Virus record (IMG/VR): IMGVR_UViG_3300037493_005394
Source: an uncultured virus (IMG/VR IMGVR_UViG_3300037493_005394)
Lineage: Duplodnaviria > Heunggongvirae > Uroviricota > Caudoviricetes
Direction: 5' to 3' (one strand)
Length of the DNA: 64,000 bases
In this document: positions 43,963 through 58,560 of the stretch, in pieces
Layout: the number at the start of each line of letters is the position of its first letter
Position numbering within the stretch: position 1 is the first letter of the stretch
Made by a program: the position numbers and the translations under genes
The notes under the pieces: generated by a model
Told to the model about the DNA's origin: nothing
What the model saw: the letters and a program-made list of their open reading frames with translations, nothing else
Database searches by the model: none

Positions 43963-44027
43963 GGCCGTGGCAAGGGTTGGACGGTTGAACGGCTGACAGT
44001 TGCGGGCGAGGGCCCAGGAGCGGAGCG

Positions 44028-44888: not shown

Positions 44889-44891
44889 GCG

Positions 44892-45293: not shown

Positions 45294-45299
45294 CTAGCG

Positions 45300-45782
45300 A
45301 TGAGCGAGCAGCAAGCGATCGTGAAGGCGTTCGAGTTTGAAACGCAGGCCGTCCGCGTAGAGCTATTTGACGGGGAGCCCTGGTGGGTGGCCAAGGATGT
45401 GGCGGTGGCTTTGGGGTATGCCGAGACAAGCGTGGCTAACAACATGTCCAATCTCGTGGCGAAGGTGCCAGCGGAATGGCGGGGCAATAAACCATTTCTT
45501 ACCCCTGGTGGCACCCAGGAAATCCTCTGTCTTTCTGAGCAGGGCCTCTATTCCTTCCTGGCCCGCAGCAACATGGAGGCGGCTGTCCCGTTCCAGAAGT
45601 GGATCGCGGGAGAAGTATTACCAAGCATTCGTAAGACGGGGAAATACAGCGTGGTGCCCGTCGATCCGACGGCGCTGGGTTTGCCGGATTTCAACGATCC
45701 CTTTGCGGCTGCCGAGGCATGGGCTAAGGAGGGCCGGGGACGCGTGGCGGCGGAGGAGCAGGCCAAAGGGGTGGCAGCATGA
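45300..45782 (+). CDS. Bro-N domain protein
   Basis: Paralog of 40414..40860. Confidence 0.9.
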   Translation: MSEQQAIVKAFEFETQAVRVELFDGEPWWVAKDVAVALGYAETSVANNMSNLVAKVPAEWRGNKPFLTPGGTQEILCLSEQGLYSFLARSNMEAAVPFQKWIAGEVLPSIRKTGKYSVVPVDPTALGLPDFNDPFAAAEAWAKEGRGRVAAEEQAKGVAA

Positions 45783-46669
45783 ACGATACGAAGATAGTGC
45801 GCACACTCGCCCCGGTGGACTTCCACGGGCAGTCTTTGACGGTGATCGATCGCGAGGGGAAGCCCTACGTGGCGATGCGGCCCGTGGTTGAGGGGATCGG
45901 CTTGGATTGGCGTAGTCAGCACGTTAAGTTGTCGGATGACCTCGGGCGATGGGGGATGGTGATGATCACCACACTTCAGAGTGCCGATGGAAAAGAGCGG
46001 GAGATGGCCTGTATTCCACTCAAGAAGCTGACGGGCTGGCTGATGACGTTGCAGCCCTCGCGTATGGATAATGAAGTTTCTGCGCGAGTGTTGCTTTATC
46101 AGAATGAGTGCGACGATGCTCTGTGGGACTACTGGACGCAAGGTGTGGCGGAAAATCCGCGGGTAGCTATATCTAATGACCCTACGGCATTGGGGTTGCC
46201 TGATTTCCGAGATCCCAGGAAAGCGGCCTTGGGCTGGATCGAACAGTACGACCGTGCGGAGGCGGAGGCCGCTGCGCGCAAACTCCTCGCGGCGAAGATC
46301 GAGTCGGATGCCCCCAAGGTGGAGTTCGCGGAACGCCTGGAGGTGGCCCAGGAGGCGATCCTCGTGGGCGATATGGCGAAGTTGATCACGGCACAGACGG
46401 GGTACAAGATCGGCCAGAATGGGCTCTTCGACTGGCTACGGTCCCATCGGTACGTTATGAAGACGCCGGGGCGGCACCTATTGCCCACGCAGTACGCGGT
46501 GGAGAGCGGCTGGCTGGTCATCAAGGAGGGGACGCGGGTCGCCCCCAGTGGGAACGTGCATCTGACACAGACCACGCGGGTCACGGCGCGGGGCCAGGCG
46601 CACTTCCTGGGGATCTTCGCGCGGCTCAAGGAGCAGGCGATGGAGATTGGGATGGCGCGCCTCAACTAG
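45779..46669 (+). CDS. phage antirepressor (P22 AR N-terminal plus KilAC/ANT C-terminal)
   Basis: PYVAMRPVVEGIGLDW, YQNECDDALWDYW, APKVEF, IGQNGLFDWLR, TRVTARGQ. Confidence 0.9.
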   Translation: MNDTKIVRTLAPVDFHGQSLTVIDREGKPYVAMRPVVEGIGLDWRSQHVKLSDDLGRWGMVMITTLQSADGKEREMACIPLKKLTGWLMTLQPSRMDNEVSARVLLYQNECDDALWDYWTQGVAENPRVAISNDPTALGLPDFRDPRKAALGWIEQYDRAEAEAAARKLLAAKIESDAPKVEFAERLEVAQEAILVGDMAKLITAQTGYKIGQNGLFDWLRSHRYVMKTPGRHLLPTQYAVESGWLVIKEGTRVAPSGNVHLTQTTRVTARGQAHFLGIFARLKEQAMEIGMARLN

Positions 46670-46724
46670 GCGCAGGCCTTGATGGTTGTGTTGCTGAGGC
46701 CCCAGTGGGCTGAGGGGTGCAGGG

Positions 46725-47429
46725 ATGTTGACCCATGAGTTGAAGATCTGGCGCGCCTATTTTGTGGAGATCGCCCGCGGGGAGAAGACGCTGGAGATCC
46801 GGTTCGGCGACGACCGCCAGTACGCGGCGGAGGACACGATCGTGTTCCGCGAGTGGGAGCATGGGGCAGCGGTCTATACGGGACGCTGGCTCACGGCGCG
46901 GATCGCGGCGTGTCAGCGGACGGAACAGGCGCGGTTCGTGGGGTTTGGTCAGCCGGTGTGGGCGCTGGCGTTGACCGAGGTGGGCGACATTCAGGAGGGG
47001 GTGCCGTCTTGCATGGTGCCCTCGCGGATCGACCTCTACCTGGCCCCCGAGGGGACGACGACGTTTGATGCCTGGGAGGCGTGGCCGACGCGCATTCCCA
47101 TGAGGGCGGTCCACATCGAAGAGGAGACGGCGACGGCACGGACGCCGATCGCGGGGAGTGCGTGGAATCGGTCGATCACGCTGTGCCGCATTCCACGGGG
47201 GGACATGGACGCGGCGATGCTCGCGTGGGTGAAGATGAGCGAGTACGCGGTCTATAAGGGGCGGATGTGCGTCCTGCGGTTGCAGCGGGGCGCGGTCGAG
47301 GGACCCCAGGAGGTGCGCATCATTCCGTTGTTCAATGCCTGTGTCGTGCGGGCCAAACACGGGGACGCCGTGGACTTGTTCAGCGAGGTGGACATCGTCG
47401 GTGTCGTGCCCGATGAGGTGACCGAATGA
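46725..47429 (+). CDS. ASCH/DUF3850-like domain protein
   Basis: THELKIW..YF..I..GEKTLEIR..DR.Y...D...FREW. Confidence 0.75.
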   Translation: MLTHELKIWRAYFVEIARGEKTLEIRFGDDRQYAAEDTIVFREWEHGAAVYTGRWLTARIAACQRTEQARFVGFGQPVWALALTEVGDIQEGVPSCMVPSRIDLYLAPEGTTTFDAWEAWPTRIPMRAVHIEEETATARTPIAGSAWNRSITLCRIPRGDMDAAMLAWVKMSEYAVYKGRMCVLRLQRGAVEGPQEVRIIPLFNACVVRAKHGDAVDLFSEVDIVGVVPDEVTE

Positions 47430-48130
47430 GAGCGCCGTTTATCGTGTTCGAGGGTGCGGATGGCGCGGGGACCACGACGCAGACCGCGCTGCTGGTCGCT
47501 CGGCTGCATGGAATGGGGATCGCGGCGCAGGCGACGGCGGAGCCCTCGCACGGGCCGATCGGTCACACTTTGCGGGAGTACCTGCGGGGCGGGGTGCACC
47601 TCAGTTGGCGGGGGCTCGCCCACCTCTTCGCGGCGGATCGCTGTTGGCACGTGGAGCACGTGATTCGCCCCCTGCTGCGGAAGGGCGTGGTCGTGGTCTG
47701 CGATCGGTTCTTCCATTCGACGGTGGTCTACCAGGGACTCTCCGAGGAGGGGCACCGGGAGCGGATGCAGGGCCTGGCGTGCGAGGTGCTGGTCGGGGTG
47801 CCGCGCGGGTACGGGGCGCCCGAGGTCCCGTGGTGGGTGGCGCCGGACATGACGTTCATCCTGGATGGTCCCGCCGAGGTGTTCTGGCAACGGGTGCAGG
47901 CGCGTGGGTTTTTGCCGGATCGGTTCGAGGAGCAGACGTTCCACCAGAAGGTCGTCGCGGCCTACCACAGCTTCGTGTGGGACGTGGCGCTGGATACGGG
48001 GGTGATCAAGCGGGTTGACGGGACGGTGGCCGCCGAGGCGGTCGAGGCGGCGGTCTGGGCGGACCTCGAGGGGGACATCCTCCCGGAGACGTGGGATCGG
48101 TGTGCCCGGCATCAGGAGGTCGTATTGTGA
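47426..48130 (+). CDS. tmk: thymidylate kinase
   Basis: FEGADGAGTTTQ P-loop, LFAADR, CDRFFHS, PD, DRFE. Confidence 0.9.
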   Translation: MRAPFIVFEGADGAGTTTQTALLVARLHGMGIAAQATAEPSHGPIGHTLREYLRGGVHLSWRGLAHLFAADRCWHVEHVIRPLLRKGVVVVCDRFFHSTVVYQGLSEEGHRERMQGLACEVLVGVPRGYGAPEVPWWVAPDMTFILDGPAEVFWQRVQARGFLPDRFEEQTFHQKVVAAYHSFVWDVALDTGVIKRVDGTVAAEAVEAAVWADLEGDILPETWDRCARHQEVVL

Positions 48131-50009
48131 GTCCGACGCGGTATCGGTTGAGCTTCCAGACGGAGGATGTCTCCAGCGGGTGGATCCAGGCGGTGGCGCA
48201 GGAGTGCGTGGTGCGCATCCAGCGGGAGGTGCCCCGTTATGGGTATGCACGGGGTGGCGTGACGACGGACCATCTGCCCCTCGAGATGGTGGCCGATCAC
48301 GTGGCGCGGCACGGGATGCAGGCGGCCGAGTTGGTGTTCGGCGGGATCATCCGGCGGGAGGAGGCGTTCCTCGATTGGGTGAATCGTCATTTCCGGGCGC
48401 CGCCAGCATGCGGCGCGTTGGTGGTCGCCCAGTTCAACGACCCTGAGGCCTTGGGGGGCTGGGAGGGGTGGCGGGGCTGGGCGCGCTATGACCATGCGGT
48501 GGCGATGACCAAGGCGACGGTGACGGGCTTGGAGATCGAGGAGTGCCCCGAGATGCGCGTCCATGTGATGCGGCTTACGGTGTCCGCCCTCGATCTGCAC
48601 CGCTCGGCGTACCCCTCGCCGATCGTGCCGCCGCCGGACCTGCTGCCAGGGACCATTTGGTATCCGTACAGCCCATTGCAGATCTCGTCGGCGTGGCCGA
48701 CGGAGGAGGCCCTTTGACCTATGATGAGGCGATCGCGTGGATGCGGGTGCATGGGCGGGCCATCGAGGATCAAGCCCTGGCGGGGGATCCGGGGGCGCGG
48801 CCGGTGTCGTACCGCTTCACGGAGCTGTTGATGGATCCCCACAGTGTGACGGCACAGCAGCGGTTGATCGCCGCGATCTTGACCTATCAGGCTGCCAAGG
48901 GGATGGGGGAGGGGCCGGTAGCGGTTCCCGCTGCGATCTTCACGGTGACGCCCTTGCCCACGGCGGCGGGGGTGGGACAGCGGGCGATCGATGCCATCAC
49001 CAGCGAGGAGGACCAGCGGGCGCTGGCCTTGTGCGGCGTGGGGGATCCGTCGCAGGGGGGCCGCGATGCATGAGGCGATCAAGGGGCGTGTGGAGGCGGC
49101 CCTGCGGTGGGAGTGCCCGGACTGCGGGGGCGCCCTGGCGTGGGCCCCCGCGATGCAGTGGCATCCCTGCTATGCCCCGGAGCACCGGGCGCGGTTCTGC
49201 GGGGGACAGGGGTGTTTTTTCGTGGCGGATCTCTGGGAGCGCGTGGGGGAACCCCCGCGGACGGCGTATGCGGAGTGGTACATTGAGCGCCATGGCACCA
49301 CGGGCGAGATGGCGTTCTGCATTGGGACGCGCCCCGCGGACCGCGTGGCGCCCACGGAGGCCTAGTCATGACAATTGCGGATGACATGCAGAAGGCGGTG
49401 GACGCGGCGGCGGAGACCGTGGTGGGGGCGGGCCCCGCGAGCCAGGCCCCGGCGGCGCGGACGAAGCGCGCGTGGCTCCTCCTCGTGGGCAAGGCGCTGC
49501 TGCTGCTCGCGGCCCTGGTGCCGGGCAACCTCGCGTTCATGAGCGGGGCGGACGCCAAGGCGGACGTGGCGGATGCGAAGGCCGAGACGGCGTATGCGGT
49601 GCTCCGGGAGCGCGTGACCTACGTGGATGGGCAGCTTGCCGAGTTGCGATCGGACCTCGCGGACGTGCGCGACCTCCTCAAGCTCGTGGTGGCGCAGCGG
49701 GAGGCCCGTGCGGCGGCGGCGAGTCCTGCCCTGACGGCCCCGCCGATCGACCGGCCGGGGTATGTGGGGGGGCGCCCCGCGGCGACGAGCACGGCGCCCC
49801 TGCCGGGATCCCTCGGGGAGGATCCCGAGGTCGAGGCGCTGAGCGATGCGGCGAACATCGCGGATCTCGCGCGGATCATGGACACGGCGGGGACAGAGCC
49901 GTGGGGGCTCAAGACGCGGGCGGTTGAGGCGCCGCCCGCGCCCCTGCCCTCGTTGGACCAGGCGGTTCAAGTGCGGGCGCAGGCGAAGGCCCTGGAGAGG
50001 CAACATTGA
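48127..50009 (+). other. four closely spaced hypothetical ORFs (48127..48717, 48714..49073, 49066..49365, 49368..50009)
   Basis: Overlapping or adjacent stop/start junctions; the last ORF has a TM segment and coiled coil. Confidence 0.5.
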
Positions 50010-50030
50010 CGCGGCGGGCGTCTTGGCGCG

Positions 50031-50189
50031 TTACAGGTGGAGATGTTTCAAGTTGCCGGTGAGGAACAGGATCAACAGAATCAGCAGGATGACGCCAACG
50101 GGGGACCAGCCGACGGTACTGTTGTTCCAGGCGCCGCCAAAGAAGGCGAGGACGAGCAGGATGATCAGGATGATGACGAGTGTTGACAT
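50031..50189 (-). CDS. small two-TM membrane protein, DUF3309-like
   Basis: GGAGG RBS on the minus strand; MSTLVIILIILLVLAFFGG..GWSPVGVILLILLILFLTG. Confidence 0.7.
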   Translation of the reverse strand: MSTLVIILIILLVLAFFGGAWNNSTVGWSPVGVILLILLILFLTGNLKHLHL

Positions 50190-50270
50190 GGCTGGCCCTC
50201 CCTGGGTGTTGTGGGGAGTGTATGGCATGCGGGGGGCGTATAGCTACGATCTCAAGGGGATGAACGACCG

Positions 50271-50723
50271 ATGAGTCGGCCGAAGAAGGCGAAGCGGGGG
50301 CCCACGGCGGCGGAGCGGGTGGCGGCGCAGGCGCGGGGGGTCTCCCTGGAGGCGCCGGTCTCCCCCCTGGTGCGGGGGACGCGGTACCTCGCGGTGGCGG
50401 GGGATCAACCCTTGGTTGTGGTCCAGGCGGCGCATCGGGCGGTGGCCGAGGCGGTGGTGGCGCGGATGCGGGCGCCGGCGCACGCGGCGGGGCATCCCGC
50501 GTGCGTGGTGATGCCGGTCAGCAAGGCGTCGGCGGCCCTCCGATCGGCGATGGCGGCGGCGTTGTGTTACGCGTGGCACCCCGCGGCGTGCCCCGCGTGT
50601 CTGCGGGTGTGGCGCAGCCCCGCGTGGGCGCTCGATACGTGCCCCACGTGCCTCGGCTTGACGGGCGTTGAGGGCTTCTGTGGGGGTGAGGATGCCGACG
50701 AGGGCGCGCGGAGGGTGCCATGA
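50271..50723 (+). CDS. hypothetical protein with Zn ribbon
   Basis: CPAC and CPTC; ATGA overlap with the MTase. Confidence 0.55.
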   Translation: MSRPKKAKRGPTAAERVAAQARGVSLEAPVSPLVRGTRYLAVAGDQPLVVVQAAHRAVAEAVVARMRAPAHAAGHPACVVMPVSKASAALRSAMAAALCYAWHPAACPACLRVWRSPAWALDTCPTCLGLTGVEGFCGGEDADEGARRVP

Positions 50724-52672
50724 CGCGGCGCGGGCAGGACACGCAGCTGCCCCTGCTCGGGGTGGGGGCCCCCGTGCGCCTGATCCACGGGGACAGCCTC
50801 GCGGTGCTGCCCCTGTTGGCGGCGGACAGCGTGGATGCGATCGTGACGGACCCGCCGTATGAATTATCGAACAGCGGCAAGGCAAGTGCCAGTCGGGTCG
50901 CGCTTGAACTCATGTTCCCAAAGAATGCGAAGGTCAATACCGATGGATCGAGCGAGGATCATCTTCCGTTCCTCGTATCGAAGATTATTGGCTTGCGTCG
51001 TGGTGGGTTTATCCCACAACCAGCGGCCACCGTGCCAGTACGTTCCGTGACACTCCACGACGATGCGGCGGGAGGGGATGTAAATGTCGAACACTGCGTA
51101 GAACGATCCATTTGGGAGTCGAACGGCGAGGGATGGAATGATGGTGAAGCCGAAGCGAATGAACACCTTGGCGACTTCGCGCTCGAATTGACTGACTCCA
51201 TGGCCATGTTGAATGCGCTGAATAGCTTGGGCTGCGGCTTTTTTGCGGGCGGAATCGGGATAGGGTTTGGGATTGATCCGACGAGTCTCCCAAGCCTTTG
51301 CTGCGGCGGCCTGTCGATCAACGACAGCGACGAAATTGTACGGTTTCGACACCGTGCGTTGACGGACACGATAAGCGCACTCTCTGGAACAGCAAGTATT
51401 CCCGTGGTGCGCTTTGATTTGGGACGGGTAACGGGTGAAAAGCTTGCCGCAGACGGGGCACTCGTGTTCTGTGCGTCTTTGCTTTTCGGTGGCGCGAAGT
51501 TGGTACGAACAAGCCCGAGAGCAGGTGGTCTGCCGTCCATGCTTGAGTCGCGTAGGATCTGCATCGTAGATGCGTTCACAAATCGGGCATTGTCGTTTAG
51601 CATCCTCTTCCATCCACAGAATATAGCACAAAATGGATTTATGGGAAAAGAGTGGGACGGATCAAGGGTTGCCTATGACGCGTCACTCTGGGCTAATTGT
51701 CTGCGGGTGCTCAAGCCGGGGGGGCACCTGATCGCGTTCGGCGGGGATCGCACGCATCATCGGCTCATGGTCGCGGTGGAGGATGCGGGGTTCGAGATCA
51801 GGACGTGCTTGTACTGGTGTTTTGGGTCTGGATTTCCGAAATCGTTAGATATTTCAAAGGCACTGGACAGAATGGAAGGCGCGGAGCGCGAAGTTGTTGG
51901 CATATCTTCTGTTACTGAATCTCGTCATTCAGAGTTTGCAGAGGTGAGAAATGATAGTCCGAGTGGGGTATATGGAGACAAGTCTATCAATTACATAACT
52001 GCTCCATCGACAGAGGCGGCCAGGCAGTGGGATGGTTGGGGGACCGCGTTGAAACCGGCGATAGAGATCGCGGTATTGGTGCGCAAGCCCCTGAGCGAGG
52101 GCACGGTGGCTAAAAATGTGCTGCGACACGGGACGGGGGGCCTAAATATCGACGCCTGCCGCGTGCCCACGGCGTCCGCGGATGCGGCGGCGCGGCCCCT
52201 GGACACGATGAAGGGCCGCTGGCCGGCTAATGTGGTGCACGATGGGAGCGAGGAGGTCGAGGCGGCCTTTGCGGCTTACGGGGCGCGCGGGCAGTGCGCG
52301 CCGGTTAAGGGGACGGAGCCGAGTGCGCCTAGCAAGCATGTGTATGGCACGTACAAAAGGACGGTAGCGACACAGTTTCAAGGGCGGGTGGACAGCGCGG
52401 CCCGGTTTTTTTACACGGCCAAGGCGAGTGGGGAGGACCGCGAGTTTGGAAATAATCACGTAACGGTCAAGCCCCTGGCGCTCATGCGCTGGTTGGTCCG
52501 GCTCGTGACGCGCCCTGGCGGCGTAGTGCTCGATCCTTTTATGGGCAGCGGCTCGACGGGGCGCGCGTGCCAGGCTGAGGGGTTTAGGTTTATTGGGATC
52601 GAGCGCGAGGCGGACTATGTGGCGATCGCGCAGCGGCGCCTGCTCGCGCAGGAGGTCGAGGTTTTGTCATGA
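50720..52672 (+). CDS. N6-adenine/N4-cytosine DNA methyltransferase (beta-type order) interrupted by a 256-codon in-frame insertion
   Basis: Motif IV VTDPPY, RVLKPGG, HVTVKP, motif I VLDPFMGSGSTG; DPPYEL|GFMGKEWD is split by 50867..51634. Confidence 0.9.
   Translation: MTRRGQDTQLPLLGVGAPVRLIHGDSLAVLPLLAADSVDAIVTDPPYELSNSGKASASRVALELMFPKNAKVNTDGSSEDHLPFLVSKIIGLRRGGFIPQPAATVPVRSVTLHDDAAGGDVNVEHCVERSIWESNGEGWNDGEAEANEHLGDFALELTDSMAMLNALNSLGCGFFAGGIGIGFGIDPTSLPSLCCGGLSINDSDEIVRFRHRALTDTISALSGTASIPVVRFDLGRVTGEKLAADGALVFCASLLFGGAKLVRTSPRAGGLPSMLESRRICIVDAFTNRALSFSILFHPQNIAQNGFMGKEWDGSRVAYDASLWANCLRVLKPGGHLIAFGGDRTHHRLMVAVEDAGFEIRTCLYWCFGSGFPKSLDISKALDRMEGAEREVVGISSVTESRHSEFAEVRNDSPSGVYGDKSINYITAPSTEAARQWDGWGTALKPAIEIAVLVRKPLSEGTVAKNVLRHGTGGLNIDACRVPTASADAAARPLDTMKGRWPANVVHDGSEEVEAAFAAYGARGQCAPVKGTEPSAPSKHVYGTYKRTVATQFQGRVDSAARFFYTAKASGEDREFGNNHVTVKPLALMRWLVRLVTRPGGVVLDPFMGSGSTGRACQAEGFRFIGIEREADYVAIAQRRLLAQEVEVLS
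50864..51613 (-). CDS. putative homing endonuclease (2 Zn fingers plus Vsr/DUF559-like nuclease) antisense within the MTase insertion
   Basis: CPIC..CSRAC and CPVC..CSREC; FDIYIPSRRIVVECHGTYWHG and LRILWEHEF. Alternative TTG start at 51631. Confidence 0.85.
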   Translation of the reverse strand: MEEDAKRQCPICERIYDADPTRLKHGRQTTCSRACSYQLRATEKQRRTEHECPVCGKLFTRYPSQIKAHHGNTCCSRECAYRVRQRTVSKPYNFVAVVDRQAAAAKAWETRRINPKPYPDSARKKAAAQAIQRIQHGHGVSQFEREVAKVFIRFGFTIIPSLAVRLPNGSFYAVFDIYIPSRRIVVECHGTYWHGGRWLWDKPTTTQANNLRYEERKMILARSIGIDLRILWEHEFKRDPTGTCLAAVR

Positions 52673-52884
52673 CGGAGGTGCGCGAGGCGCGGGTCTACCG
52701 CCTCTCCCGGCAGGAGGCCGTGGAGCTGCTGACGGATGGCCTCAAGGCGCGTGGCATAGCGGTGCCCCCCTATGACTGGGCGCGGCTGGACCTCGACACG
52801 CCCAACAATACGATTCAACTCACGATCGTGGCGGTGCCGCCGGGGACCGTGGTAACGTCGACCCCGGCGATCAGGCTCAACTGA
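52669..52884 (+). CDS. small hypothetical protein
   Basis: ATGA overlap with the MTase stop. Confidence 0.55.
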   Translation: MTEVREARVYRLSRQEAVELLTDGLKARGIAVPPYDWARLDLDTPNNTIQLTIVAVPPGTVVTSTPAIRLN

Positions 52885-52908
52885 CGCTGCGTATGCGCGT
52901 ACGCAAGG

Positions 52909-54181
52909 AGCGAGGGACTCTGGTGTTTAATCAATGCTTGAATGTGAGTCATGATTCACATTTTGCCCATGTCAGGTCAAAGTCGTGAACCGCACGCATA
53001 AAATCGCGTTGGATCCCACATCTAGCCAGGTCGGCTATTTTCGGCGGGCCTGTGGCGTGGCGCGGTTTACGTACAACTGGGGGCTAGCCGAGTGGCAGCG
53101 CCAATATGCCGAGGGGCAGAAACCCAGCGGGGCAGCGCTCAAGAAGCAGTTCAACGCCCTGCGCCATGTGGATTTTCCGTGGTCTGGCGAGGTGCTGCGC
53201 GACGCGACGGCCCAGCCGTTTGCAAACCTGCAGCGGGCCTATCAGAACTTCTTCGCGAAGCGGGGCAAGCATCCTACCTTTAAAAAGAAGGGCCGCCATG
53301 ACAGCTTTTACATTGCGAACGACAAGTTTTCGGTAGAGGGCGAGAAGATCCGTATCCCCCATGTTGGGTGGGTGCAGATGCGTGAAGCCTTGCGGTTTGA
53401 AGGCCGGATTCAATCGGCGGTAGTGTCCCGAACAGCGCATCGGTGGTTTGTGGCGATAGCGGTCGAGGTGCCCGATCAACTCATCACGCGCGAGAACCAA
53501 GCGGTGGTGGGGGTGGATCTGGGGATTAAGGCGCTGGCGACGCTTTCCACGGGTGAGTCGATTTTGGCACCAAAACCGTTGAAGGCCTCATTGGAAAAGC
53601 TGCGCCGGTTAAGTCGGAGCGTGGCGCGCAAACAGAAGGGATCGGCGAACCGGGCCAAGGCTGTAAGGCGCTTGGTGCGGGTTCATTACCGGATTGCCTG
53701 TGTGCGCAACGATGCCTTGCACAAGCTCACAACGGGGCTTGTGGAGCGGTTTGGAACCGTGGTGATCGAGGATTTGAACGTCAAAGGGATGGTGAAAAAC
53801 CACTGCCTGGCCAGGGCGATTTCCGACCTTGGGTTTGGGGAGTTCCGGCGACAACTGGAGTACAAAGCCCCCGCAAAAGGCGTGAGGATCGTGGTGGCGG
53901 ATCGGTGGTTTCCGTCCTCGAAGACGTGTGCAGACTGTGGATTTGTGGTGGATATTCTGCCGCTGTCGGTTCGAGAATGGGCGTGTCCCGAATGTGGGGT
54001 AGTCCATGACCGGGACGTGAATGCGGCGATCAATCTGGAAAAGCTAGGGCGGGCTACGCCCGAAGAAACGCCTGTGGAGAAGAAGGCTCTGGCGCGGCCG
54101 AAATGGCGCGTGAAACCGGCCTCGCGGAAGCAGGAACCAACCGGTGCGCACCTTTGCGCACCAGAAAGATAGCAGCGAGGG
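52909..54181 (+). mobile_element. transposase-less IS607-type tnpB element 2, flanked by direct repeat AGCGAGGG
   Basis: Repeat at 52909-52916 and 54174-54181; inverted repeat at 52941-52962; right end ...GATAGCAG. Confidence 0.75.
52985..54172 (+). CDS. tnpB: RNA-guided endonuclease TnpB, paralog of 24594..25784
   Basis: VGVDLG, VIEDL, CADC/CPEC and HDRDVNAA all intact. Confidence 0.95.
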   Translation: MNRTHKIALDPTSSQVGYFRRACGVARFTYNWGLAEWQRQYAEGQKPSGAALKKQFNALRHVDFPWSGEVLRDATAQPFANLQRAYQNFFAKRGKHPTFKKKGRHDSFYIANDKFSVEGEKIRIPHVGWVQMREALRFEGRIQSAVVSRTAHRWFVAIAVEVPDQLITRENQAVVGVDLGIKALATLSTGESILAPKPLKASLEKLRRLSRSVARKQKGSANRAKAVRRLVRVHYRIACVRNDALHKLTTGLVERFGTVVIEDLNVKGMVKNHCLARAISDLGFGEFRRQLEYKAPAKGVRIVVADRWFPSSKTCADCGFVVDILPLSVREWACPECGVVHDRDVNAAINLEKLGRATPEETPVEKKALARPKWRVKPASRKQEPTGAHLCAPER

Positions 54182-54195
54182 CCATGAAGGACGAT
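54044..54195 (+). ncRNA. predicted omegaRNA of tnpB element 2 (guide ~54176-54195)
   Basis: GGGCG/CGCCC stem, GTGAAAC, GAAGCAGGAA and GGTGCGCA/TGCGCACC hairpin. Confidence 0.65.
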
Positions 54196-54546
54196 GATCA
54201 GTACATCTCTAAGCGGTGGATCTTGGTCATGGTGGGCATTTTCTTTGGGGCGGGGATCGGCATTGGCATGCTGGTGATGGCGCTGGTGGGGGCGCTGACG
54301 GGGTGCGACCTCGTGAAGAAGGATACGGATGGGTGCGCGCCCGAGGCCCTGCGGTGTGCGGGGCCGCGCCTGGAGGTCTGCGACGCGGACCGCAACTGGG
54401 GCCTCGTCGCGGACTGCGCGACCGTGACGCCGGGCCTGTGGGTGTGCTGCCCCGCGCAGGAGACCTGCGTGCCGGCCGCGGCGTGCGGCGGGGATGCGGG
54501 CGACCATTTTGCTGATGCCGGCAAGATGGTCGACGCGGGCCCATGA
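54184..54546 (+). CDS. Cys-rich putative lipoprotein
   Basis: Hydrophobic segment, LTGC lipobox, eight further Cys, DAG-repeat tail. Confidence 0.65.
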   Translation: MKDDDQYISKRWILVMVGIFFGAGIGIGMLVMALVGALTGCDLVKKDTDGCAPEALRCAGPRLEVCDADRNWGLVADCATVTPGLWVCCPAQETCVPAAACGGDAGDHFADAGKMVDAGP

Positions 54547-54663
54547 AGAAGGATGAGCGCGAGTACCAGGCCAACTTCGAGCGACGCCTGCGGGCACGGG
54601 TGACGGGCGAGGTGGAGGAGTGGCGGATGGAATCTCTCTGGACGGGGGAAGTAAGGAGTCATT

Positions 54664-55314
54664 GTGACGATGAGCCCAACGACTAAGCACCATGCGCTGA
54701 CCCCGGCCCTGGTGATCGATCTTTACGGGTACATGAGCGAGGTCTACCACAGCCGGGTGGTACCCAAGGGCGGATCGCACGCGATGAAGGCGGCGGGATG
54801 GGCGCTCGACCTCATGGGGGTCCAGGATGCGTCGACCTTCATGACGCGGTACACGACGACGATCGGGCACACCATCTACGTGCCGTATGTCGTGGGGGAG
54901 ACGCAGGATCCCGCGGTGTTGGCCAAGCAGATCGCGACGTGCGTCCATGAGCACCAGCACGTGGAGCAGTACGACGTGGGGGGCTGGCGCTGGCAGTGGG
55001 CGTACCTGACCGACCCCACGGCGCGGGCGCGCTACGAGGCGGAGGCCTATGCGACGAACCTAGAGATGGCCTATTGGTACGATGGGGGGCGCCTCGACCC
55101 GGTGGCCCTTGCGGCCAAGCTCAAGGCCTATGGGTGCGGGACCGCGGACATCGCGGTGGCGGCGCGGATGCTGGCGGCCTCCGCGAGCATTGCGTGGCGC
55201 GGGGGGATCGCGCACACCCCGAGCCGGCGCGCCATTGCGTGGCTGGAGACCCATGCCCCCACGGTGCGCCTCAGCGCTGCGGCCTGGGAGCCCATCGGTT
55301 ACAACCCTCTCTGA
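54664..55314 (+). CDS. putative zincin-type metallopeptidase
   Basis: AAGGAG RBS; CVHEHQHVEQ (HExxH) plus YEAEAY. Confidence 0.65.
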   Translation: MTMSPTTKHHALTPALVIDLYGYMSEVYHSRVVPKGGSHAMKAAGWALDLMGVQDASTFMTRYTTTIGHTIYVPYVVGETQDPAVLAKQIATCVHEHQHVEQYDVGGWRWQWAYLTDPTARARYEAEAYATNLEMAYWYDGGRLDPVALAAKLKAYGCGTADIAVAARMLAASASIAWRGGIAHTPSRRAIAWLETHAPTVRLSAAAWEPIGYNPL

Positions 55315-55345
55315 GGCCCCCCCCCACACCCCCGTCGATCTGTTG

Positions 55346-55374
55346 TTGACAAACCCGGTTGGCGGCGTTACGTT
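55346..55374 (+). promoter_or_regulatory. sigma70-like promoter, TTGACAAACC family
   Basis: TTGACA-N17-TACGTT; relatives at 57837-57865 and 62791-62819. Confidence 0.65.
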
Positions 55375-55427
55375 TTCAATGGGCATGGTCCCATCAACAA
55401 ACCGGCGCCTGGCGCCAGGAGGCCTCA

Positions 55428-57836
55428 ATGGAAGCCAACACGATCATCACCCTCGCTGCCCTCGCCGCTCTCCCCGCCGACGCCCTGCGCGCCCTCGCCC
55501 AGCAACTGCACGCGGCCGTGCGCGCCCTCGCGGGCGTCTGCGACGGTGCAAAATCTAAGGACGATCGGGGGTTCAGCGCCAGCGACACGGCCTATGGCAA
55601 GGCCATCGCGGCGGTAGCCCCCGAGGCCTGGACGGCCGAGGACGTAGCGGCCGTGGCGGCCCTCTGCCGTACCTATAAGGGGCAGCTCGCGGGGTTCGGC
55701 CTCGACGTGGAGGCGTTACCCCGCGTCGACGTCGATCGGCGGGCCAATTACGAGCACTTTAGAGCACGTGTGGCGGCGGCAGCGCGCAAGGCCGTGCAGG
55801 CGGCCTATGTCGCCAGCGCGGGGACCGCAGCAGATCGTACGCGGGCGGCGGATCTCGCGTGCCTCGCGTGGGTGGAGGGGCAGGAGCTGGTCTTCCAGAC
55901 GCCGTATGACGTGGCTTTCGTCGCGGCGGTCAAGGCGTGCGAGGGGCGCCGCTGGGACGGCATGTACTGGCGCGTGGCCATGCGGCCCAATGCGGGGGCC
56001 CTCCTTGCCCTCCTCGACACGTTCGAGGTCGCCTGCCCGGCGGAGGCCCGCGCCCTGCTCCAGGCTCATGCGGCGGATGCGGCGGCCCCCAAGGCCGAGG
56101 CCCCCAAGGCCGACCACGTGACCCTCGTGGACGGTCAGATTATCCTGCGCACCCCCTACAGCCCCGAGGCCACCGCGGCGATCAAGGCCCTGCAGGGCCG
56201 CCGCTGGGACGGCGAGCGCAAGGTGTGGGTCGTCACGGCGACGGCGGAGAACTGCACGGCGGTCCAGGCCCTCGCGGGCCGCTTCAACTGGCGCGTGGCG
56301 GCGGCGGTGGCCACGTTCGGGCAGGCGATGGTGGCCCAGGCCCTAGCCAACGTCGAGGCGAGCCGCGCGGCCGACGCCGAGGTGACCCTGAGCGGGTTGG
56401 CTGCTGGCGTCACCCCCTACCCCTTCCAGCGCGCCGGCATCGCCTACGCCGTGGCCAACCGTAACGTCCTAATCGCTGATGATGTTGGCTTAGGAAAATC
56501 TCCACAGTCCATGATCACGGTCGAGCAGCTCGGCGCCTACCCCTGCCTCGTGGTCGCCCCGAAGGCGGTCAAGCGCCAGTGGCGCAAGGAGATCATCAAG
56601 TTCCTCACCGGCCGCACCTCCAGCGAGGTCAACGGCAAGATCGACCTCAGCGGCGACTTCGTGATCGTGAATTACGCCCAGCTCAGCAAGCTGACCGTCG
56701 CCGTCCATGTGCCGGGTAAGGGTGGCGCGATGCGCACGGTGTACGAGCCCACTCCCGAGGTCGTGGCGCGTGGCTTCCGATCGATCATTGTCGACGAGTG
56801 TCAAGCATGCAAGGACGGGCAGTCGCTTCAGAGTAAGCGCGTTAAGGGCCTTGCGGGCCTTCCCGGCCTTCAGTGCCGCTTGCTCCTCACCGCGACCCCG
56901 ATCATGAACCGCCCCGTGGAGCTGGTGCATCAACTCGACGTGCTCGGGCGCCTCGGCGAGTTCGGCGGCTTCTGGGCGTTCGTGAAGCAGTATTGCAAGG
57001 CCACGCAGGGCCGCTACGGGTGGGACCTCAGCGGCGCCAGCAACCTCGGCGAGCTGAACCGCCGTCTGCGCGCGACCTGCATGGTGCGCCGCGAGAAGGC
57101 GGACGTTGTGAAAGAGTTGCCGGCCCTCCAGCGGACCGTGGTGCCCTGTGAGATCCGGGACAAGGCCGCCTTCGCGGACGCCATGTGCGACGCCATCGCG
57201 TGGCTCCGCGAGGCCAAGGGCTCGCTATCGGAGCGCGCGTTCCACGCCGAGGCCCTGGTGAAGATCAACGCCCTCCGCCAGATGGCCGCCGAGTTTAAGC
57301 TTGCCAGCGCGGTCGACTGGATCGAGGCGTGGCTTGACGGCGCCGAGGGGCAGAAGCTCGTGGTGTTCGCGCACCACCGGGACATCCAGGCCAAGCTCGC
57401 GGCGGCCCTCGCCCCCTACGGGGCCGTGGCCCTCAGCGGGGAGAGCACGGACCGCGAGCGCGCGGACGCCGTGGACCGCTTCTGGAAGGATCCTGCGTGC
57501 CGCGTGATCGTGTGCAGCCTCAAGGCCGCCGGCGTGGGCCTGAACCTCCAGTGTGCGGGGACCGTGGCCTTCGTGGAGTTCGGGTGGCACGCCGCGGACA
57601 TGAACCAGGCCGAGGGGCGTGTGCACCGCATCGGCAGCGAGGCCGAGTCGATCAACTCTTACTGGCTCGCTGGTGAGGACACGTTCGACACTGACATGAT
57701 CGAGCTGATCGAGAGCAAGCGCGCGGTGGCTGACGCCGCGGTGATCGGGGCGGGGGGCGCGGAGGCCGTGCAGGACGTGGTGGCGTGGTTCGCGGGGCTC
57801 GCCACGCGGTTTATGGTGGCCCAGGGCCGCGAGTAG
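55428..57836 (+). CDS. SNF2-family helicase with two HARP-like domains (SMARCAL1-like)
   Basis: AGGAGG RBS; two TPY..AxxK..GRRWDG repeats, DDVGLGKS, DECQ, TATP, QAEGRVHRIG. Confidence 0.9.
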   Translation: MEANTIITLAALAALPADALRALAQQLHAAVRALAGVCDGAKSKDDRGFSASDTAYGKAIAAVAPEAWTAEDVAAVAALCRTYKGQLAGFGLDVEALPRVDVDRRANYEHFRARVAAAARKAVQAAYVASAGTAADRTRAADLACLAWVEGQELVFQTPYDVAFVAAVKACEGRRWDGMYWRVAMRPNAGALLALLDTFEVACPAEARALLQAHAADAAAPKAEAPKADHVTLVDGQIILRTPYSPEATAAIKALQGRRWDGERKVWVVTATAENCTAVQALAGRFNWRVAAAVATFGQAMVAQALANVEASRAADAEVTLSGLAAGVTPYPFQRAGIAYAVANRNVLIADDVGLGKSPQSMITVEQLGAYPCLVVAPKAVKRQWRKEIIKFLTGRTSSEVNGKIDLSGDFVIVNYAQLSKLTVAVHVPGKGGAMRTVYEPTPEVVARGFRSIIVDECQACKDGQSLQSKRVKGLAGLPGLQCRLLLTATPIMNRPVELVHQLDVLGRLGEFGGFWAFVKQYCKATQGRYGWDLSGASNLGELNRRLRATCMVRREKADVVKELPALQRTVVPCEIRDKAAFADAMCDAIAWLREAKGSLSERAFHAEALVKINALRQMAAEFKLASAVDWIEAWLDGAEGQKLVVFAHHRDIQAKLAAALAPYGAVALSGESTDRERADAVDRFWKDPACRVIVCSLKAAGVGLNLQCAGTVAFVEFGWHAADMNQAEGRVHRIGSEAESINSYWLAGEDTFDTDMIELIESKRAVADAAVIGAGGAEAVQDVVAWFAGLATRFMVAQGRE

Positions 57837-57902
57837 TTGACAAACCGGGCGGGGCGTGCTAACGCCTTTGCAGGCCCTAGGGGCCAGGGGGGGAGGATCA
57901 TC

Positions 57903-58560
57903 ATGGATGCGCAGGGCACACGGATGCTAGAGCATGAGGGTAAGTTCGTGGGGCGCCGCGCCTGCGTGCTGCGGGGCGGCCCCATGTGGGCGGGTCTCCT
58001 CGCGGCGGAGCACGGGGACAAGCCGGCGGCGCTAGTGGCCGAGGTCGAGGTGGGGCGGGATCGGATCGCGCGGGCCGTCGTGGCGGCGGCGCTGCGGGGG
58101 CGGGCATGACGCCCTGGGAGTGGATGCGTTCGCCCGCGCATGCGCATGCGCAGGAAGAGGTCTTGTTGGAGGCGCATGCCTTCCTTGACTATATGCGGGT
58201 GCACTGGGCTGAGGTGGCGCCGTGCTCCTGCCACCAGATCGAGGGGCACGCCCCGGACTGCGCCTACGAGCGCACGACGGAGTGCCTGCGTGTGGCTTTT
58301 TTTGCGGCGCGCGCGGATGCCTGATGGACCGCGTGCTGAGCTGGAAGGATGCCCTCGCGGTCTACAAGGCCGTGCGGGGGTACGCGGGGGCCCTGACCCC
58401 CGAGGAGCGGCGGACCATGGTGGAGGCCCAGGGGGCCCTCTTGGGGCGCTGCTGCGGGCAGACGAACCCCATGAGCCGGGCGCAGCTCGACGCCGTGCTG
58501 GCCATCGGCGCCAAGGCGCTGGCGTACGCGCATGCGCACGGGATCGGGATCCCGCGCTGA
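57903..58560 (+). other. three small coupled ORFs (57903..58109, 58106..58324, 58324..58560)
   Basis: ATGA/TGATG overlaps downstream of the promoter at 57837. Confidence 0.5.

What the first reader, a model, noticed from the sequence alone, without database searches (positions are those of the whole stretch)
50864..51634. In-frame insertion in a DNA methyltransferase that is wholly an antisense endonuclease gene: neither canonical intein nor evident intron
Seen: the family-typical DPPYEL-GFMGKEWD is split by exactly 768 bp (50867-51634). The insert is stop-free in the MTase frame but reads as non-protein-like. The opposite strand encodes a Zn-finger plus Vsr-like nuclease whose TAA stop is the MTase Leu codon TTA (50864-66). 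An extended -10 (TGcTATATT, 6 nt before ATG 51613) sits in the last ~20 bp, implying a leaderless antisense mRNA. This leaves almost no room for a ribozyme. The sense peptide starts with Ser and ends Gln-Asn, but +1 is Gly and no Hint motifs are visible. AT-richer codons continue downstream to ~52150, as expected for a co-conversion tract. Known: homing elements target conserved catalytic motifs; from memory, an analogous hidden out-of-frame HNH insert (ShiLan) was reported in actinophage methylases. Inference: a minimal homing element tolerated via an open sense frame, unusual splicing or ribosomal bypass.
Basis: partly seen in the sequence, partly recalled or inferred. Interest (0 to 1): 0.85.

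Follow-up and report, generated by a model that had tools for sequence, protein, structure and literature searches.

The report
Backwards nuclease gene inside methylase
A selfish DNA-cutting-enzyme gene lies backwards inside a phage DNA-methylase gene and has lost every codon that would put a stop into the methylase's reading frame, so the methylase can apparently be made straight through it without any splicing.

Summary
A 650-codon beta-class DNA methyltransferase ORF (50720-52672, +) carries a 768-bp in-frame insert (50867-51634) between DPPYEL and GFMGKEWD. The insert is almost wholly a minus-strand gene (ATG 51613, stop 50866-50864) for a two-zinc-ribbon, Vsr-like nuclease.

Openness in this window alone could be chance (expected 2.9-6.6 stop-making codons). 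The family settles it:
- Of 68 distinct homologous nuclease genes, 60 have no TTA, CTA or TCA codon (summed expectation 335).
- The other 8 have 3-22; in none does the opposite-strand frame run on into a methylase, and they are scattered over the tree.
- 46 of 71 rows sit at this same DPPY|FMGK site.

Inserts are far more alike than their host genes (a 1153-bp block at 97% identity in otherwise unalignable loci), which is the signature of homing. No intein or intron signal was found, and RNA-library contigs cross the 5' junction unspliced.

Best reading: a self-promoted antisense homing cassette that is translated through as an extra loop. It is an opposite-strand, Vsr-type variant of the published ShiLan 'hidden HNH'. 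Nuclease activity, transcripts and methylase activity are untested.

The parts
50720..52672 (+). Host gene: beta-class N6-adenine/N4-cytosine DNA methyltransferase ORF, 650 codons, read through the insert. Its start overlaps the stop of the upstream ORF (50271-50723) and its stop overlaps the start of the next ORF (52669-52884).
   Evidence: ORF list. Pfam PF01555 E 1.3e-27. phrog_67 DNA methyltransferase E 5.5e-67 in two stretches. Profile hits to CcrM, DpnA, M.RsrI, M.MboIIA and M.PvuII. AF2 model aligns to CcrM 6pbd with Z 25.9, 236 residues, model range 14-648.
50720..50866 (+). MTase 5' exon-like part, ending in catalytic motif IV, DPPY-E-L. Host-like GC3 of 1.0 and 0.84.
   Evidence: D44 P45 P46 Y47 are invariant in 26 aligned MTases, 8 of them insert-bearing.
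50867..51634 (.). The 768-bp insert (256 codons, no stop in the MTase frame): the homing cassette. No flanking direct or inverted repeats.
   Evidence: Uninterrupted DPPYxxFMGK in 66 of 80 related MTase loci. The sense peptide has no Pfam, PHROG or PDB match and pLDDT 24-65.
50864..51613 (-). Nuclease gene: 249 codons plus a TAA stop, which is the complement of the MTase Leu49 codon TTA. No TTA, CTA or TCA codon.
   Evidence: phrog_3339 'homing endonuclease' E 3.3e-10. dN/dS 0.10-0.41 in 14 related pairs.
51377..51589 (-). Two CxxC...CxxxC zinc-ribbon-like modules (residues 9-35 and 52-79), the presumed DNA-targeting part. The module is shared with HNH-type relatives.
   Evidence: Invariant C31, C35, C52, C55, C75, C79 in 35 sequences. 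Matches covering only the N-terminal part, at 43-49% identity, in HNH-bearing ORFs.
50867..51196 (-). Vsr-like PD-(D/E)xK nuclease domain (about residues 140-249). Invariant D176, E187, H194 and E233.
   Evidence: Pfam Vsr E 1.4e-3, below cut-off. AF2 pLDDT 84.5. Foldseek top hits 1vsr E 1.4e-4, 1cw0 E 3.7e-4, 3r3p (I-Bth0305I) E 2.4e-3.
51620..51647 (-). Predicted promoter of the nuclease gene. The -35-like TTCCCA lies in the MTase 3' exon, followed by a 16-nt spacer and TG-n-TATATT. The -10 ends 6 nt before the ATG, which implies a leaderless or nearly leaderless mRNA.
   Evidence: Consensus scan. The same element at the same distance in most of the 14 clade-A loci. 23 of 64 distinct upstream regions have a -10-like hexamer ending 4-9 nt before an in-frame start. 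Function is inferred, not shown.
51635..52672 (+). MTase 3' exon-like part, starting GFMGKEWD and holding the AdoMet motif DPFMGSGSTG.
51635..52070 (+). Low and mosaic GC3 tract in the 3' exon: a possible co-conversion tract brought in with the cassette.
   Evidence: GC3 0.40, 0.80, 0.72, 0.36, 0.36, 0.64 against 0.88-0.89 in neighbouring genes. Related pairs share flanks of about 180-300 bp on this side. Positions 51841-52013 are replaced by 45 letters in a relative, so part of the tract may be a separate variable segment.

Best explanation
The insert is a complete, self-promoted homing-endonuclease cassette lying on the opposite strand of a phage DNA methyltransferase gene, with its codons exactly aligned to the host's codons.

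The nuclease has two zinc ribbons and a Vsr-like catalytic domain. It is inferred to cut the uninterrupted DPPYEL/GFMGKEWD-coding DNA of insert-free methylase alleles in co-infecting phages. Repair from the insert-bearing copy would then copy the cassette, together with some flanking exon, into the cut allele.

The cassette neither splices nor splits its host. The nuclease gene has been purged of TTA, CTA and TCA, the three codons that read as stops on the other strand. The methylase ORF therefore runs straight through, and the enzyme would be made with a 256-residue, probably unstructured extra loop. The loop sits just after motif IV, at a point where insert-free relatives already carry loops of 0 to about 35 residues.

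Shown here by computation: the anatomy, the selection for the open frame, which frame is the protein-coding one, and the horizontal movement of the cassette. Inferred: nuclease activity and target, promoter use, and that the fused methylase is active.
For: (1) Anatomy. as listed under parts. The nuclease stop is the host Leu codon, and the cassette fills the insert to within 21 nt.

(2) Same architecture in two phage contigs of 135 and 252 kb, where the nuclease is 55-61% identical and the MTase ORFs are open for 728 and 699 aa.

(3) Family test. 71 rows (the window plus 70 loci) had a near-full-length nuclease match.
- 46 have both DPPY and FMGK junctions in one open antisense ORF, 7 show one junction, 9 are open but lie just upstream of an MTase, and 9 have stops.
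- After three exact duplicates were dropped, 60 of 68 distinct genes have 0 TTA/CTA/TCA. The expectation is 2.4-11.8 each (sum 335), or a sum of 192 over the 39 loci with at least 150 exon codons when host-exon Leu/Ser usage is used.
- The 8 others have 3-22 such codons against 6.4-15.5 expected.
- The other two antisense frames hold 1-44 stops each.
- At less than 80% nt identity there are 51 all-zero lineages, 8 non-zero and none mixed.
- On a quick IQ-TREE the non-zero rows are scattered: 7 changes, at least 5 forced by supported branches.

(4) Which frame codes. dN/dS is 0.10-0.41 in the nuclease frame and 0.43-1.13 in the sense frame, over 14 pairs.

(5) Mobility.
- 66 of 80 related MTase loci have the empty site.
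- L106 and L108 share 777 of 783 nuclease nucleotides, yet only a 1153-bp block aligns at all. L093/L091 share a 985-bp block and L107/L115 a 1046-bp block.
- Exon pS is 0.50-0.73 where insert pS is 0.11-0.33.

(6) Host still looks functional.
- Catalytic and AdoMet motifs are invariant in 8 of 8 insert-bearing MTases aligned.
- The two exon parts fold into a CcrM-like core, Z 25.9.
- L114 and L116, both insert-bearing, differ in their exons with pN 0.002 against pS 0.029 over about 473 codons.

(7) No splicing signal.
- No Pfam or PDB match for the sense peptide, and the +1 residue is Gly.
- No Rfam intron match at E up to 10.
- Read directly, the insert ends in T, not G; the exon ends in A, not T; and the insert starts TCGAA, not GTGYG.
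- RNA-library contigs bridge 50866/50867 unspliced, and no joint skips the insert in 4 runs.

(8) Own promoter conserved.
Against: - Nothing here is experimental. No cleavage, no transcript start or strand, and no methylation has been shown.
- The insert sits directly after the catalytic DPPY motif, where a 256-residue loop could well cripple the enzyme.
- The low pLDDT of the loop rests on only 8 insert-bearing sequences.
- The contigs from RNA libraries cannot show strand and may derive from contaminating DNA.
- In 9 related loci the cassette lies just upstream of the MTase rather than inside it, and the antisense frame is still free of stops. What selection preserves may therefore be continuity of translation (coupling, avoidance of polarity) rather than a working fusion enzyme.
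- Most exon divergence between hosts may predate insertion, so the exon dN/dS values of 0.01-0.43 say little about selection after insertion. The one close pair, L114/L116, rests on about a dozen changes.
- No insert-free allele closely related to this window's own MTase was found. The nearest empty alleles are 45-59% identical in protein.
Confidence: 0.75

Rival explanations
1. Translation continuity only. The frame is kept open so that ribosomes keep travelling through the cassette, which avoids Rho-type polarity and keeps translational coupling to downstream genes. The fused methylase itself would be inactive or dispensable.
For: - In 9 related loci the cassette lies immediately upstream of the MTase start. 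The antisense ORF still has no stop and ends 96-124 nt before the DPPY codons, that is, about at the MTase start.
- In the window the MTase is coupled at both ends: ATGA-type overlaps with the ORFs 50271-50723 and 52669-52884.
- The ShiLan authors note that such methylases are not essential to the phage.
Against: - The frame is preserved into the 3' exon, and the MTase motifs stay invariant in all 8 insert-bearing proteins aligned.
- The model keeps a complete CcrM-like core.
- The close insert-bearing pair L114/L116 shows far fewer non-synonymous than synonymous exon changes.
- The two readings are not exclusive.
Confidence: 0.15
2. The insert is removed by an unrecognised splicing route, either a non-canonical intein or a degenerate, ORF-overlapping intron, or it is skipped by long-range ribosomal bypass.
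For: - In the window's clade the insert begins with Ser or Thr, and in the window it ends in Asn.
- The ShiLan authors could not fully exclude such routes for their element.
- Short stop-containing mini-inserts that would need recoding do occur at this very site in related loci.
Against: - The +1 residue is Gly in all clade-A rows.
- The last insert residue varies among N, R, V, F, S, G, T and K.
- No Hint or other family matches, and no intron family at E up to 10.
- The boundary bases do not fit group I or group II introns.
- Removal at the RNA level, or bypass, would take away any need for an open frame, yet the frame is under strong selection.
- Unspliced junctions appear in RNA-library contigs.
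Confidence: 0.05
3. The nuclease is not selfish but a working partner of the methylase: a repair or restriction-like Vsr-type enzyme co-encoded with it, as vsr overlaps dcm in E. coli (recalled).
For: - Vsr-like fold.
- Constant association with one MTase family.
Against: - Patchy presence: 66 of 80 related MTases lack it.
- Cassette-limited blocks of 93-97% identity in otherwise unalignable loci.
- Insert much less diverged than host.
- Free-standing and HNH-swapped relatives.
- PHROG families annotated as homing or HNH endonucleases.
Confidence: 0.04
4. The open frame in a dead methylase pseudogene is chance.
For: For this window alone the expected count of stop-making codons is only 2.9-6.6.
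Against: - 60 of 68 distinct genes have none of the three codons where 335 are expected in sum. There are 51 independent lineages and scattered relaxed lineages.
- The exons are intact in every embedded locus.
Confidence: 0.01

Closest known systems
ShiLan domain / 'hidden HNH' insertions in actinobacteriophage DNA methylases (Gosselin et al. 2023, PMC9957025: outline and section 3.2 read; Arsenault et al. 2025, PMC11855218: abstract, Results and Discussion read)
   Same: An insertion in a conserved region of a phage DNA methylase that adds no stop to the host frame. The in-frame peptide has no recognisable fold. A nuclease with zinc-finger modules is encoded in another reading of the same DNA. 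No intein or intron signal. Patchy distribution with horizontal transfer. Leaderless expression was proposed.
   Different: - ShiLan's nuclease is on the same strand, in the +2 frame, and is an HNH enzyme of 195 aa. Here the gene is on the opposite strand, codon-aligned, and Vsr-like.
- The papers show open frames in about ten phages but no statistical test. Here stop avoidance is quantified across 68 genes, with free-standing relatives as a control.
- Whether the insertion site is the same was not checked. ShiLan's site was not read (it is in a figure I could not see).
- No member of this family was found in 50,697 GenBank phage records.
EDxHD / Vsr-like homing endonucleases, prototype I-Bth0305I (Taylor et al. 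2011, PMC3239194: passages read)
   Same: C-terminal Vsr-like catalytic domain with the conserved Asp and His. An N-terminal DNA-binding region. Targets conserved phage genes. 3r3p is the third-best fold match.
   Different: - I-Bth0305I is encoded in a group I intron, and its relatives in inteins, on the host's strand. Its N-terminus has NUMOD/HTH motifs, not zinc ribbons.
- The window's protein keeps a His at the Vsr His64 position, where I-Bth0305I has Asn (my alignment by eye and the paper's text).
- No splicing element is present here.
T4 MobA plus the gene 60 50-nt bypass element (preprint 10.1101/2022.08.31.505936: search listing and start of abstract only; Bonocora et al. 2011, PNAS, recalled)
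   Same: A free-standing nuclease gene travels with a small untranslatable insert in the neighbouring target gene. In 8 of 9 related loci where this nuclease family sits upstream of the MTase, the DPPY|FMGK site carries a short stop-containing insert. In the six such inserts that I read out, like codons flank it (GGN in five, Asp codons in L122).
   Different: - This applies to related loci, not to the window.
- The inserts are 5-16 nt, not 50.
- Hopping is untested.
Intein- and group I intron-borne homing endonuclease genes
   Same: Target the most conserved motif of a conserved gene. Patchy distribution. Co-conversion of flanks. Little harm to the host gene.
   Different: No protein or RNA splicing apparatus. 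Harmlessness would come from being translated through, which is enforced by codon choice in the nuclease gene.

Membership tests
ShiLan-type 'hidden' endonuclease insertion (translated-through homing cassette) | The insertion adds no stop to the host methylase frame | tested here: met
   The window ORF is 650 aa. 62 of 71 rows are open.
ShiLan-type 'hidden' endonuclease insertion (translated-through homing cassette) | The nuclease is encoded by another reading of the same DNA, and the in-frame peptide has no known fold | tested here: met
   The nuclease is on the - strand. The sense peptide has 0 Pfam or PHROG families and no PDB hit at E up to 10.
ShiLan-type 'hidden' endonuclease insertion (translated-through homing cassette) | Same strand, out-of-frame, HNH nuclease | tested here: not met
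   Opposite strand, codon-aligned, Vsr-like fold. It is therefore a variant, not a member in the strict sense.
ShiLan-type 'hidden' endonuclease insertion (translated-through homing cassette) | Patchy distribution, with an insert history unlike the host's | tested here: met
   66 of 80 sites are empty. Cassette-limited identity blocks. Insert pS is well below exon pS.
EDxHD (I-Bth0305I) homing endonuclease family | Vsr-like catalytic fold | tested here: met
   Foldseek: 1vsr E 1.4e-4, 3r3p E 2.4e-3 with target TM 0.59. Pfam Vsr E 1.4e-3, below the curated cut-off.
EDxHD (I-Bth0305I) homing endonuclease family | Composite E-D-x-H-D active-site motif | tested here: inconclusive
   Invariant D176, E187, H194 and E233. 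No residue-by-residue alignment to I-Bth0305I was made.
EDxHD (I-Bth0305I) homing endonuclease family | Site-specific cleavage of the uninterrupted host gene | not testable with these tools
   Needs an in vitro cleavage assay.
Intein | Hint splicing domain; Cys/Ser/Thr at +1; terminal Asn | tested here: not met
   No Hint or any other Pfam family in the sense peptide. The +1 residue is Gly. The last residue varies across the clade.
Group I or group II intron | Ribozyme core and canonical boundary nucleotides | tested here: not met
   Rfam scan at E up to 10 gave 3 unrelated sub-threshold matches and no intron family. The exon ends in A, the insert ends in T, and the insert starts TCGAA. A very degenerate ribozyme cannot be excluded by these tools.
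Beta-class N6A/N4C DNA methyltransferase (PF01555) | Motif IV DPPY at the N-terminal side, AdoMet motif FxGxG at the C-terminal side, CcrM/RsrI-like fold | tested here: met
Transposon or IS element | Terminal inverted repeats or a target-site duplication | tested here: not met
   No repeats flank 50867-51634.

The most novel reading that the evidence does not exclude
Homing endonuclease genes have a third, splicing-free way to be harmless, alongside introns and inteins. They lie backwards and codon-aligned in the host gene and purge the three codons that would read as stops on the other strand, so the host is simply translated through them.

One zinc-ribbon targeting module has been combined with at least three nuclease domains (Vsr-like, a short DUF559-like one, HNH) and is aimed at the DPPY|FMGK site of phage methylases.

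The same family also uses a second configuration. The cassette sits just upstream of the methylase, its antisense frame still open. In 8 of 9 such loci the target site is blocked by a short insert that contains a stop, flanked by like codons in the six I read out. The methylase could then be made only by ribosomal hopping or frameshifting, a miniature parallel to T4 MobA and gene 60.
Probability: 0.3. Interest if true: 0.9.

Novelty: new variant of a known kind. Interest (0 to 1): 0.78.

Why it matters
Introns and inteins are the textbook answer to how a selfish nuclease gene can sit in an essential motif without killing its host gene. The ShiLan papers raised the possibility of a route without splicing, but left open whether the open frame was chance.

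This family gives a clean natural experiment. Embedded copies never carry the three stop-making codons. Copies that have left the host frame carry them at the expected rate, and they do so in several independent lineages. That turns 'tolerated in-frame insertion' from an anecdote into a selected trait.

It also shows a gene whose codon usage is shaped by the reading frame of the opposite strand, and it makes the question directly testable with two constructs.

In practice, gene callers annotate these loci as long adenine methyltransferases and miss the nuclease. Such cassettes are also a source of new site-specific nucleases with a known target.

Tried and rejected
- Whole-genome searches. No genome is held for this window, so copy number in the genome could not be checked.
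- Sequence search of the nuclease against PDB: nothing significant. The fold search was needed.
- GenBank phages and PLSDB plasmids, tblastn with the nuclease, and megablast of 44000-58000 against phages: no match. No annotated record could be consulted.
- Earlier notes by place and by sequence: nothing.
- Literature. Beyond the ShiLan papers, no paper on an opposite-strand or Vsr-type nuclease nested in a methylase was found in the library searched. Subscription journals are not covered.
- Sequencing runs.
  - No joint skipping the insert and no insert-free DNA form appeared in the 4 runs laid.
  - The RNA-library contigs of run X3 stop at 51587 and resume at 51655, around the predicted nuclease start. 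Contigs cannot show transcript ends or strand, so I draw nothing from this gap.
  - Runs with small shares were not used for any claim.
- dN/dS of the sense frame inside the insert (0.43-1.13). It cannot be read as neutrality, because the two frames constrain each other. I use it only for the asymmetry.
- The careful tree search did not finish in the time allowed. The quick IQ-TREE was used instead.
- Not run:
  - An RNA fold of the insert, judged uninformative because the nuclease ORF fills it.
  - Complex prediction, because no binding claim is made.
Full report
WHAT IS THERE

The window is a high-GC (66%) phage or prophage region. It holds tail, baseplate and virion-protein genes, four Ant-type anti-repressor paralogues, a helicase and two TnpB genes.

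At 50720-52672 (+) lies a 650-codon ORF. Its ends match beta-class N6-adenine/N4-cytosine DNA methyltransferases: PF01555 at E 1.3e-27 and phrog_67 at E 5.5e-67 in two stretches. By profile the nearest solved relatives are CcrM, DpnA, M.RsrI, M.MboIIA and M.PvuII.

Between DPPYEL and GFMGKEWD the ORF carries 768 bp (50867-51634) that add 256 codons and no stop. This sense peptide matches no Pfam or PHROG family and no PDB sequence at E up to 10.

On the minus strand the same DNA encodes a 249-aa protein starting at ATG 51613, the start that its homologues share.
- It has two CxxC...CxxxC zinc-ribbon modules and a C-terminal domain.
- The AlphaFold model (pLDDT 84.5) is most like E. coli Vsr (1vsr E 1.4e-4, 1cw0 E 3.7e-4) and then the catalytic domain of the homing endonuclease I-Bth0305I (3r3p, E 2.4e-3).
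- PHROGs place it with 'homing endonuclease' (phrog_3339, E 3.3e-10) and, through the zinc-ribbon part, with 'HNH endonuclease' families.
- Its TAA stop is the complement of the methylase's Leu49 codon, so the two reading frames are codon-aligned.
- Only 21 nt of the insert lie outside the nuclease ORF. They hold TG-n-TATATT ending 6 nt before the ATG. The consensus scan pairs it with a -35-like hexamer that lies in the methylase's 3' exon.

No repeats flank the insert.

IS THE OPEN FRAME MORE THAN CHANCE?

In a codon-aligned antisense overlap the sense frame is open if and only if the nuclease gene has no TTA, CTA or TCA codon. For the window alone this is not compelling. The expected count is 6.6 from the gene's own position-specific base make-up, or 2.9 from the Leu/Ser codon usage of the methylase exons.

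I therefore collected relatives of the nuclease from raw DNA, independently of any gene call:
- 3 loci from viral contigs;
- the best 80 of 350 confirmed metagenome hits;
- 34 loci from species-representative genomes.

Seventy loci plus the window had a near-full-length match, giving 71 rows. After three exact duplicates were dropped, the results were as follows.
- 60 of 68 distinct genes have none of the three codons. These genes span 30-63% protein identity to the window and 34-70% GC, and the expected counts are 2.4-11.8 per gene (sum 335).
- With host-exon codon usage the sum is 192 over the 39 loci that have at least 150 exon codons.
- The other 8 genes have 3-22 such codons against 6.4-15.5 expected, so the expectation is calibrated.
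- The two other antisense frames carry 1-44 stops each.
- Clustered at 80% nucleotide identity there are 51 all-zero lineages, 8 non-zero lineages and none mixed.
- On a quick IQ-TREE of 67 distinct proteins (the careful search did not finish) the non-zero rows are scattered among the others. The tree needs 7 changes, at least 5 of them forced by supported branches. L099, for example, has 6 such codons yet sits inside a clade of embedded copies.

So the constraint follows context, not ancestry.

WHERE THE RELATIVES SIT

- In 46 of the 71 rows one open antisense ORF shows DPPY just before the cassette and FMGK-x-WD just after it. This is the same site as in the window.
- 7 rows show one junction only, because of a contig end or decay.
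- 9 rows are open but lie just upstream of a methylase.
- 9 rows have stops, and in none does the opposite-strand frame run on into a methylase. One of them (L144) still has a degraded methylase N-terminal motif just before the cassette.

Gene callers have already predicted 12 read-through proteins of 520-830 aa that contain the sense-frame insert. JGI names them adenine-specific methyltransferases.

Among 80 related methylase loci found with the C-terminal part of the window's enzyme, 66 have the uninterrupted DPPYxxFMGK pattern. By my reading of the printed tails, 12 carry short in-frame loops of about 9-35 residues at exactly this point, and 2 are uninterrupted with a variant motif. The site is thus both a conserved DNA target and a place where the protein tolerates extra length.

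WHICH FRAME IS THE GENE, AND DOES THE CASSETTE MOVE?

- In 14 pairs of related inserts, Nei-Gojobori dN/dS is 0.10-0.41 in the nuclease frame and 0.43-1.13 in the sense frame. The two frames constrain each other, so only the asymmetry is meaningful: the nuclease is the protein under selection, and the sense peptide is essentially a passenger that must merely avoid stops.
- Inserts are far more alike than their hosts. L106 and L108 share 777 of 783 nuclease nucleotides, yet the only alignable DNA between the two loci is a 1153-bp block at 97% identity. The block comprises the cassette, about 300 bp of 3' exon and about 85 bp of 5' exon.
- L093/L091 share a 985-bp block and L107/L115 a 1046-bp block.
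- In the same pairs the exon pS is 0.50-0.73 where the insert pS is 0.11-0.33.
- This is the classical footprint of homing with co-conversion of flanks, and the flank is longer on the 3'-exon side.
- The window shows the same asymmetry in composition. The 5' exon has host-like GC3 (1.0, 0.84) right up to the junction, whereas the 3' exon has a mosaic of low GC3 (0.36-0.80) as far as about 52070.
- Part of that tract (51841-52013) is replaced by 45 other letters in a relative seen in run X12. The 'co-conversion tract' is therefore only partly supported.

IS THE HOST STILL A WORKING GENE?

- In an alignment of 26 methylases, 8 of them insert-bearing, DPPY, FM, the AdoMet glycines and some 40 other positions are invariant.
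- In the AlphaFold model of the 650-aa protein, blocks of the core reach pLDDT 90-97, while the insert has block means of 24-65. With the insert present, the model still aligns to CcrM at Z 25.9 over 236 residues spanning model positions 14-648.
- The closely related insert-bearing pair L114/L116 differs in its exons with pN 0.002 against pS 0.029 over about 473 codons. This is purifying selection after insertion, though it rests on about a dozen changes.

SPLICING ALTERNATIVES

- No Hint domain was found, and the +1 residue is Gly throughout the clade.
- The last insert residue varies among N, R, V, F, S, G, T and K.
- The Rfam scan at E up to 10 gave only three unrelated sub-threshold matches.
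- The exon ends in A, the insert ends in T, and the insert starts TCGAA. None of these fits a group I or group II boundary.
- Removal at the RNA level, or a long ribosomal hop, would remove any need for an open frame. That is the opposite of what selection shows.
- In two metatranscriptome libraries, contigs cross the 5' junction unspliced (X3, 50300-51587; X12, 50817-50902). No joint skipping the insert appears in the four runs laid. A DNA contig of run X2 spans the whole region.
- These contigs cannot show strand and may come from DNA, so this is weak support only.

EXPRESSION OF THE NUCLEASE

- In most of the 14 loci of the window's clade, a TGnTAnAnT-like element lies 6 nt before the start codon, although the sense peptide there varies.
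- In 23 of 64 distinct upstream regions, a -10-like hexamer ends 4-9 nt before an in-frame start.
- By eye, another group (for example L098, L101, L102, L105, L143, L149) has a TGGTATAAT-like element about 33 nt upstream, followed by a purine-rich stretch.

The cassette thus brings its own promoter. Leaderless initiation is inferred.

MECHANISM

Shown: the anatomy, selection for the open frame, the coding asymmetry, and horizontal movement with flanks.

Inferred:
- The nuclease recognises and cuts the uninterrupted DPPYEL/GFMGKEWD-coding DNA.
- Repair copies the cassette into the cut allele.
- The filled site is immune because the target is split.
- The methylase is translated through and remains active, with a disordered loop after motif IV.

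The main rival is that selection preserves only continuity of translation. It draws support from the 9 loci where the cassette sits just upstream of the methylase yet keeps an open antisense frame that ends about at the methylase start. It also fits the window's methylase being translationally coupled to both neighbours. The two readings are compatible.

COMPARISON WITH WHAT IS KNOWN

The nearest published case is the ShiLan domain, together with the Pacc40 insert, in actinobacteriophage methylases. Those are in-frame and stop-free, with a hidden HNH gene on the same strand in another frame, no splicing signals, evidence of transfer, and a proposal of leaderless translation.

The present element differs in strand, in frame relation, in nuclease family (Vsr-like, near the EDxHD family of I-Bth0305I) and in how far it has spread:
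- 718 representatives at E up to 1e-3, 85 at 1e-10 and 13 at 1e-30 in a library of 1.84 billion proteins;
- metagenomes, and MAGs labelled Propionivibrio, Myxococcota, Actinomycetota and Planctomycetota;
- none in 50,697 GenBank phage records or 72,556 plasmids.

My four literature searches found no description of an opposite-strand or Vsr-type version.

Earlier notes of this scan describe antisense HNH cassettes in methylases with open frames. They are unchecked leads, but the same logic with a different nuclease domain fits what I saw: the zinc-ribbon module of this family also occurs fused to HNH and to a short DUF559-like nuclease.

VERDICT

This is a new variant of a recently described kind, and it supplies statistical evidence that the open frame is selected. 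Experiments are needed for nuclease activity, transcripts and methylase function.

Noticed in passing
L104, L111, L118, L121, L122, L123, L124, L133/L135, L150 (nuclease at about 2501-3260 or as listed): Second configuration of the same nuclease family. The cassette lies antisense immediately upstream of the methylase start, and its antisense frame is still free of stops.

In 8 of these 9 distinct loci a stop codon follows the DPPY motif (directly, or after one more codon). In the seven where the FMGK motif was found again, only 13-25 nt separate the two motifs, and in five of them FMGK is in another frame. In the six such inserts I read out, like codons flank the stop-containing stretch: GGN in L104, L111, L118, L135 and L150, Asp codons in L122. 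L124 instead has a 7-residue in-frame loop.

None of 80 nuclease-free methylase loci has such a stop. This looks like target-site immunisation that would need ribosomal hopping or frameshifting, as with T4 MobA and gene 60.
   Followed up: partly
L158-L161, L168-L173, L159; L151, L153, L154, L162, L163, L167: The N-terminal two-zinc-ribbon module (43-49% identical to the window's) is also found fused to other nuclease domains.
- An HNH domain: free-standing, with 3-21 TTA/CTA/TCA codons, except L159, which has 0 and whose antisense ORF of 285 aa covers little more than its own footprint.
- A short DUF559-like nuclease of 218-221 aa: embedded antisense in methylases with 0 such codons.

This suggests nuclease-domain swapping on a common targeting module.
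   Followed up: partly
window 24594-25784 (+) and 52985-54172 (+): Two TnpB (IS605 OrfB / Cas12f-like) genes, 73% identical in protein. Both have lower GC3 (0.62 and 0.70) than their neighbours. One lies about 310 bp downstream of the methylase.
   Followed up: partly
window 51841-52013: In an RNA-library contig of run X12, a relative replaces this 171-bp low-GC3 segment of the methylase with 45 other letters. It is a variable segment inside the enzyme, separate from the cassette.
   Followed up: no
L084 (862 aa), L085 (830), L086 (809), L152 (890), L141 (at least 1120 aa); L013/L015, L043, L047, L061: Several host methylase ORFs are 150-450 residues longer than the window's. In some insert-free loci the match to the C-terminal part is split over 1.5-3.2 kb. 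Further insertions (inteins or other cassettes) elsewhere in this methylase family are likely.
   Followed up: no
window 40414-46669: Four paralogous Ant-type anti-repressor genes in a row (phrog_130/2593/524, E 1e-31 to 1e-51), upstream of the methylase operon.
   Followed up: no
clade-A loci, nuclease C-terminus and insert start: The first insert residues in the sense frame (S-N-D/S-G-K) echo the G-F-M-G-K that follows the insert. The ShiLan authors noted a similar echo for their element. Here it is the reverse reading of the conserved nuclease C-terminus ...CLAVVR.
   Followed up: no
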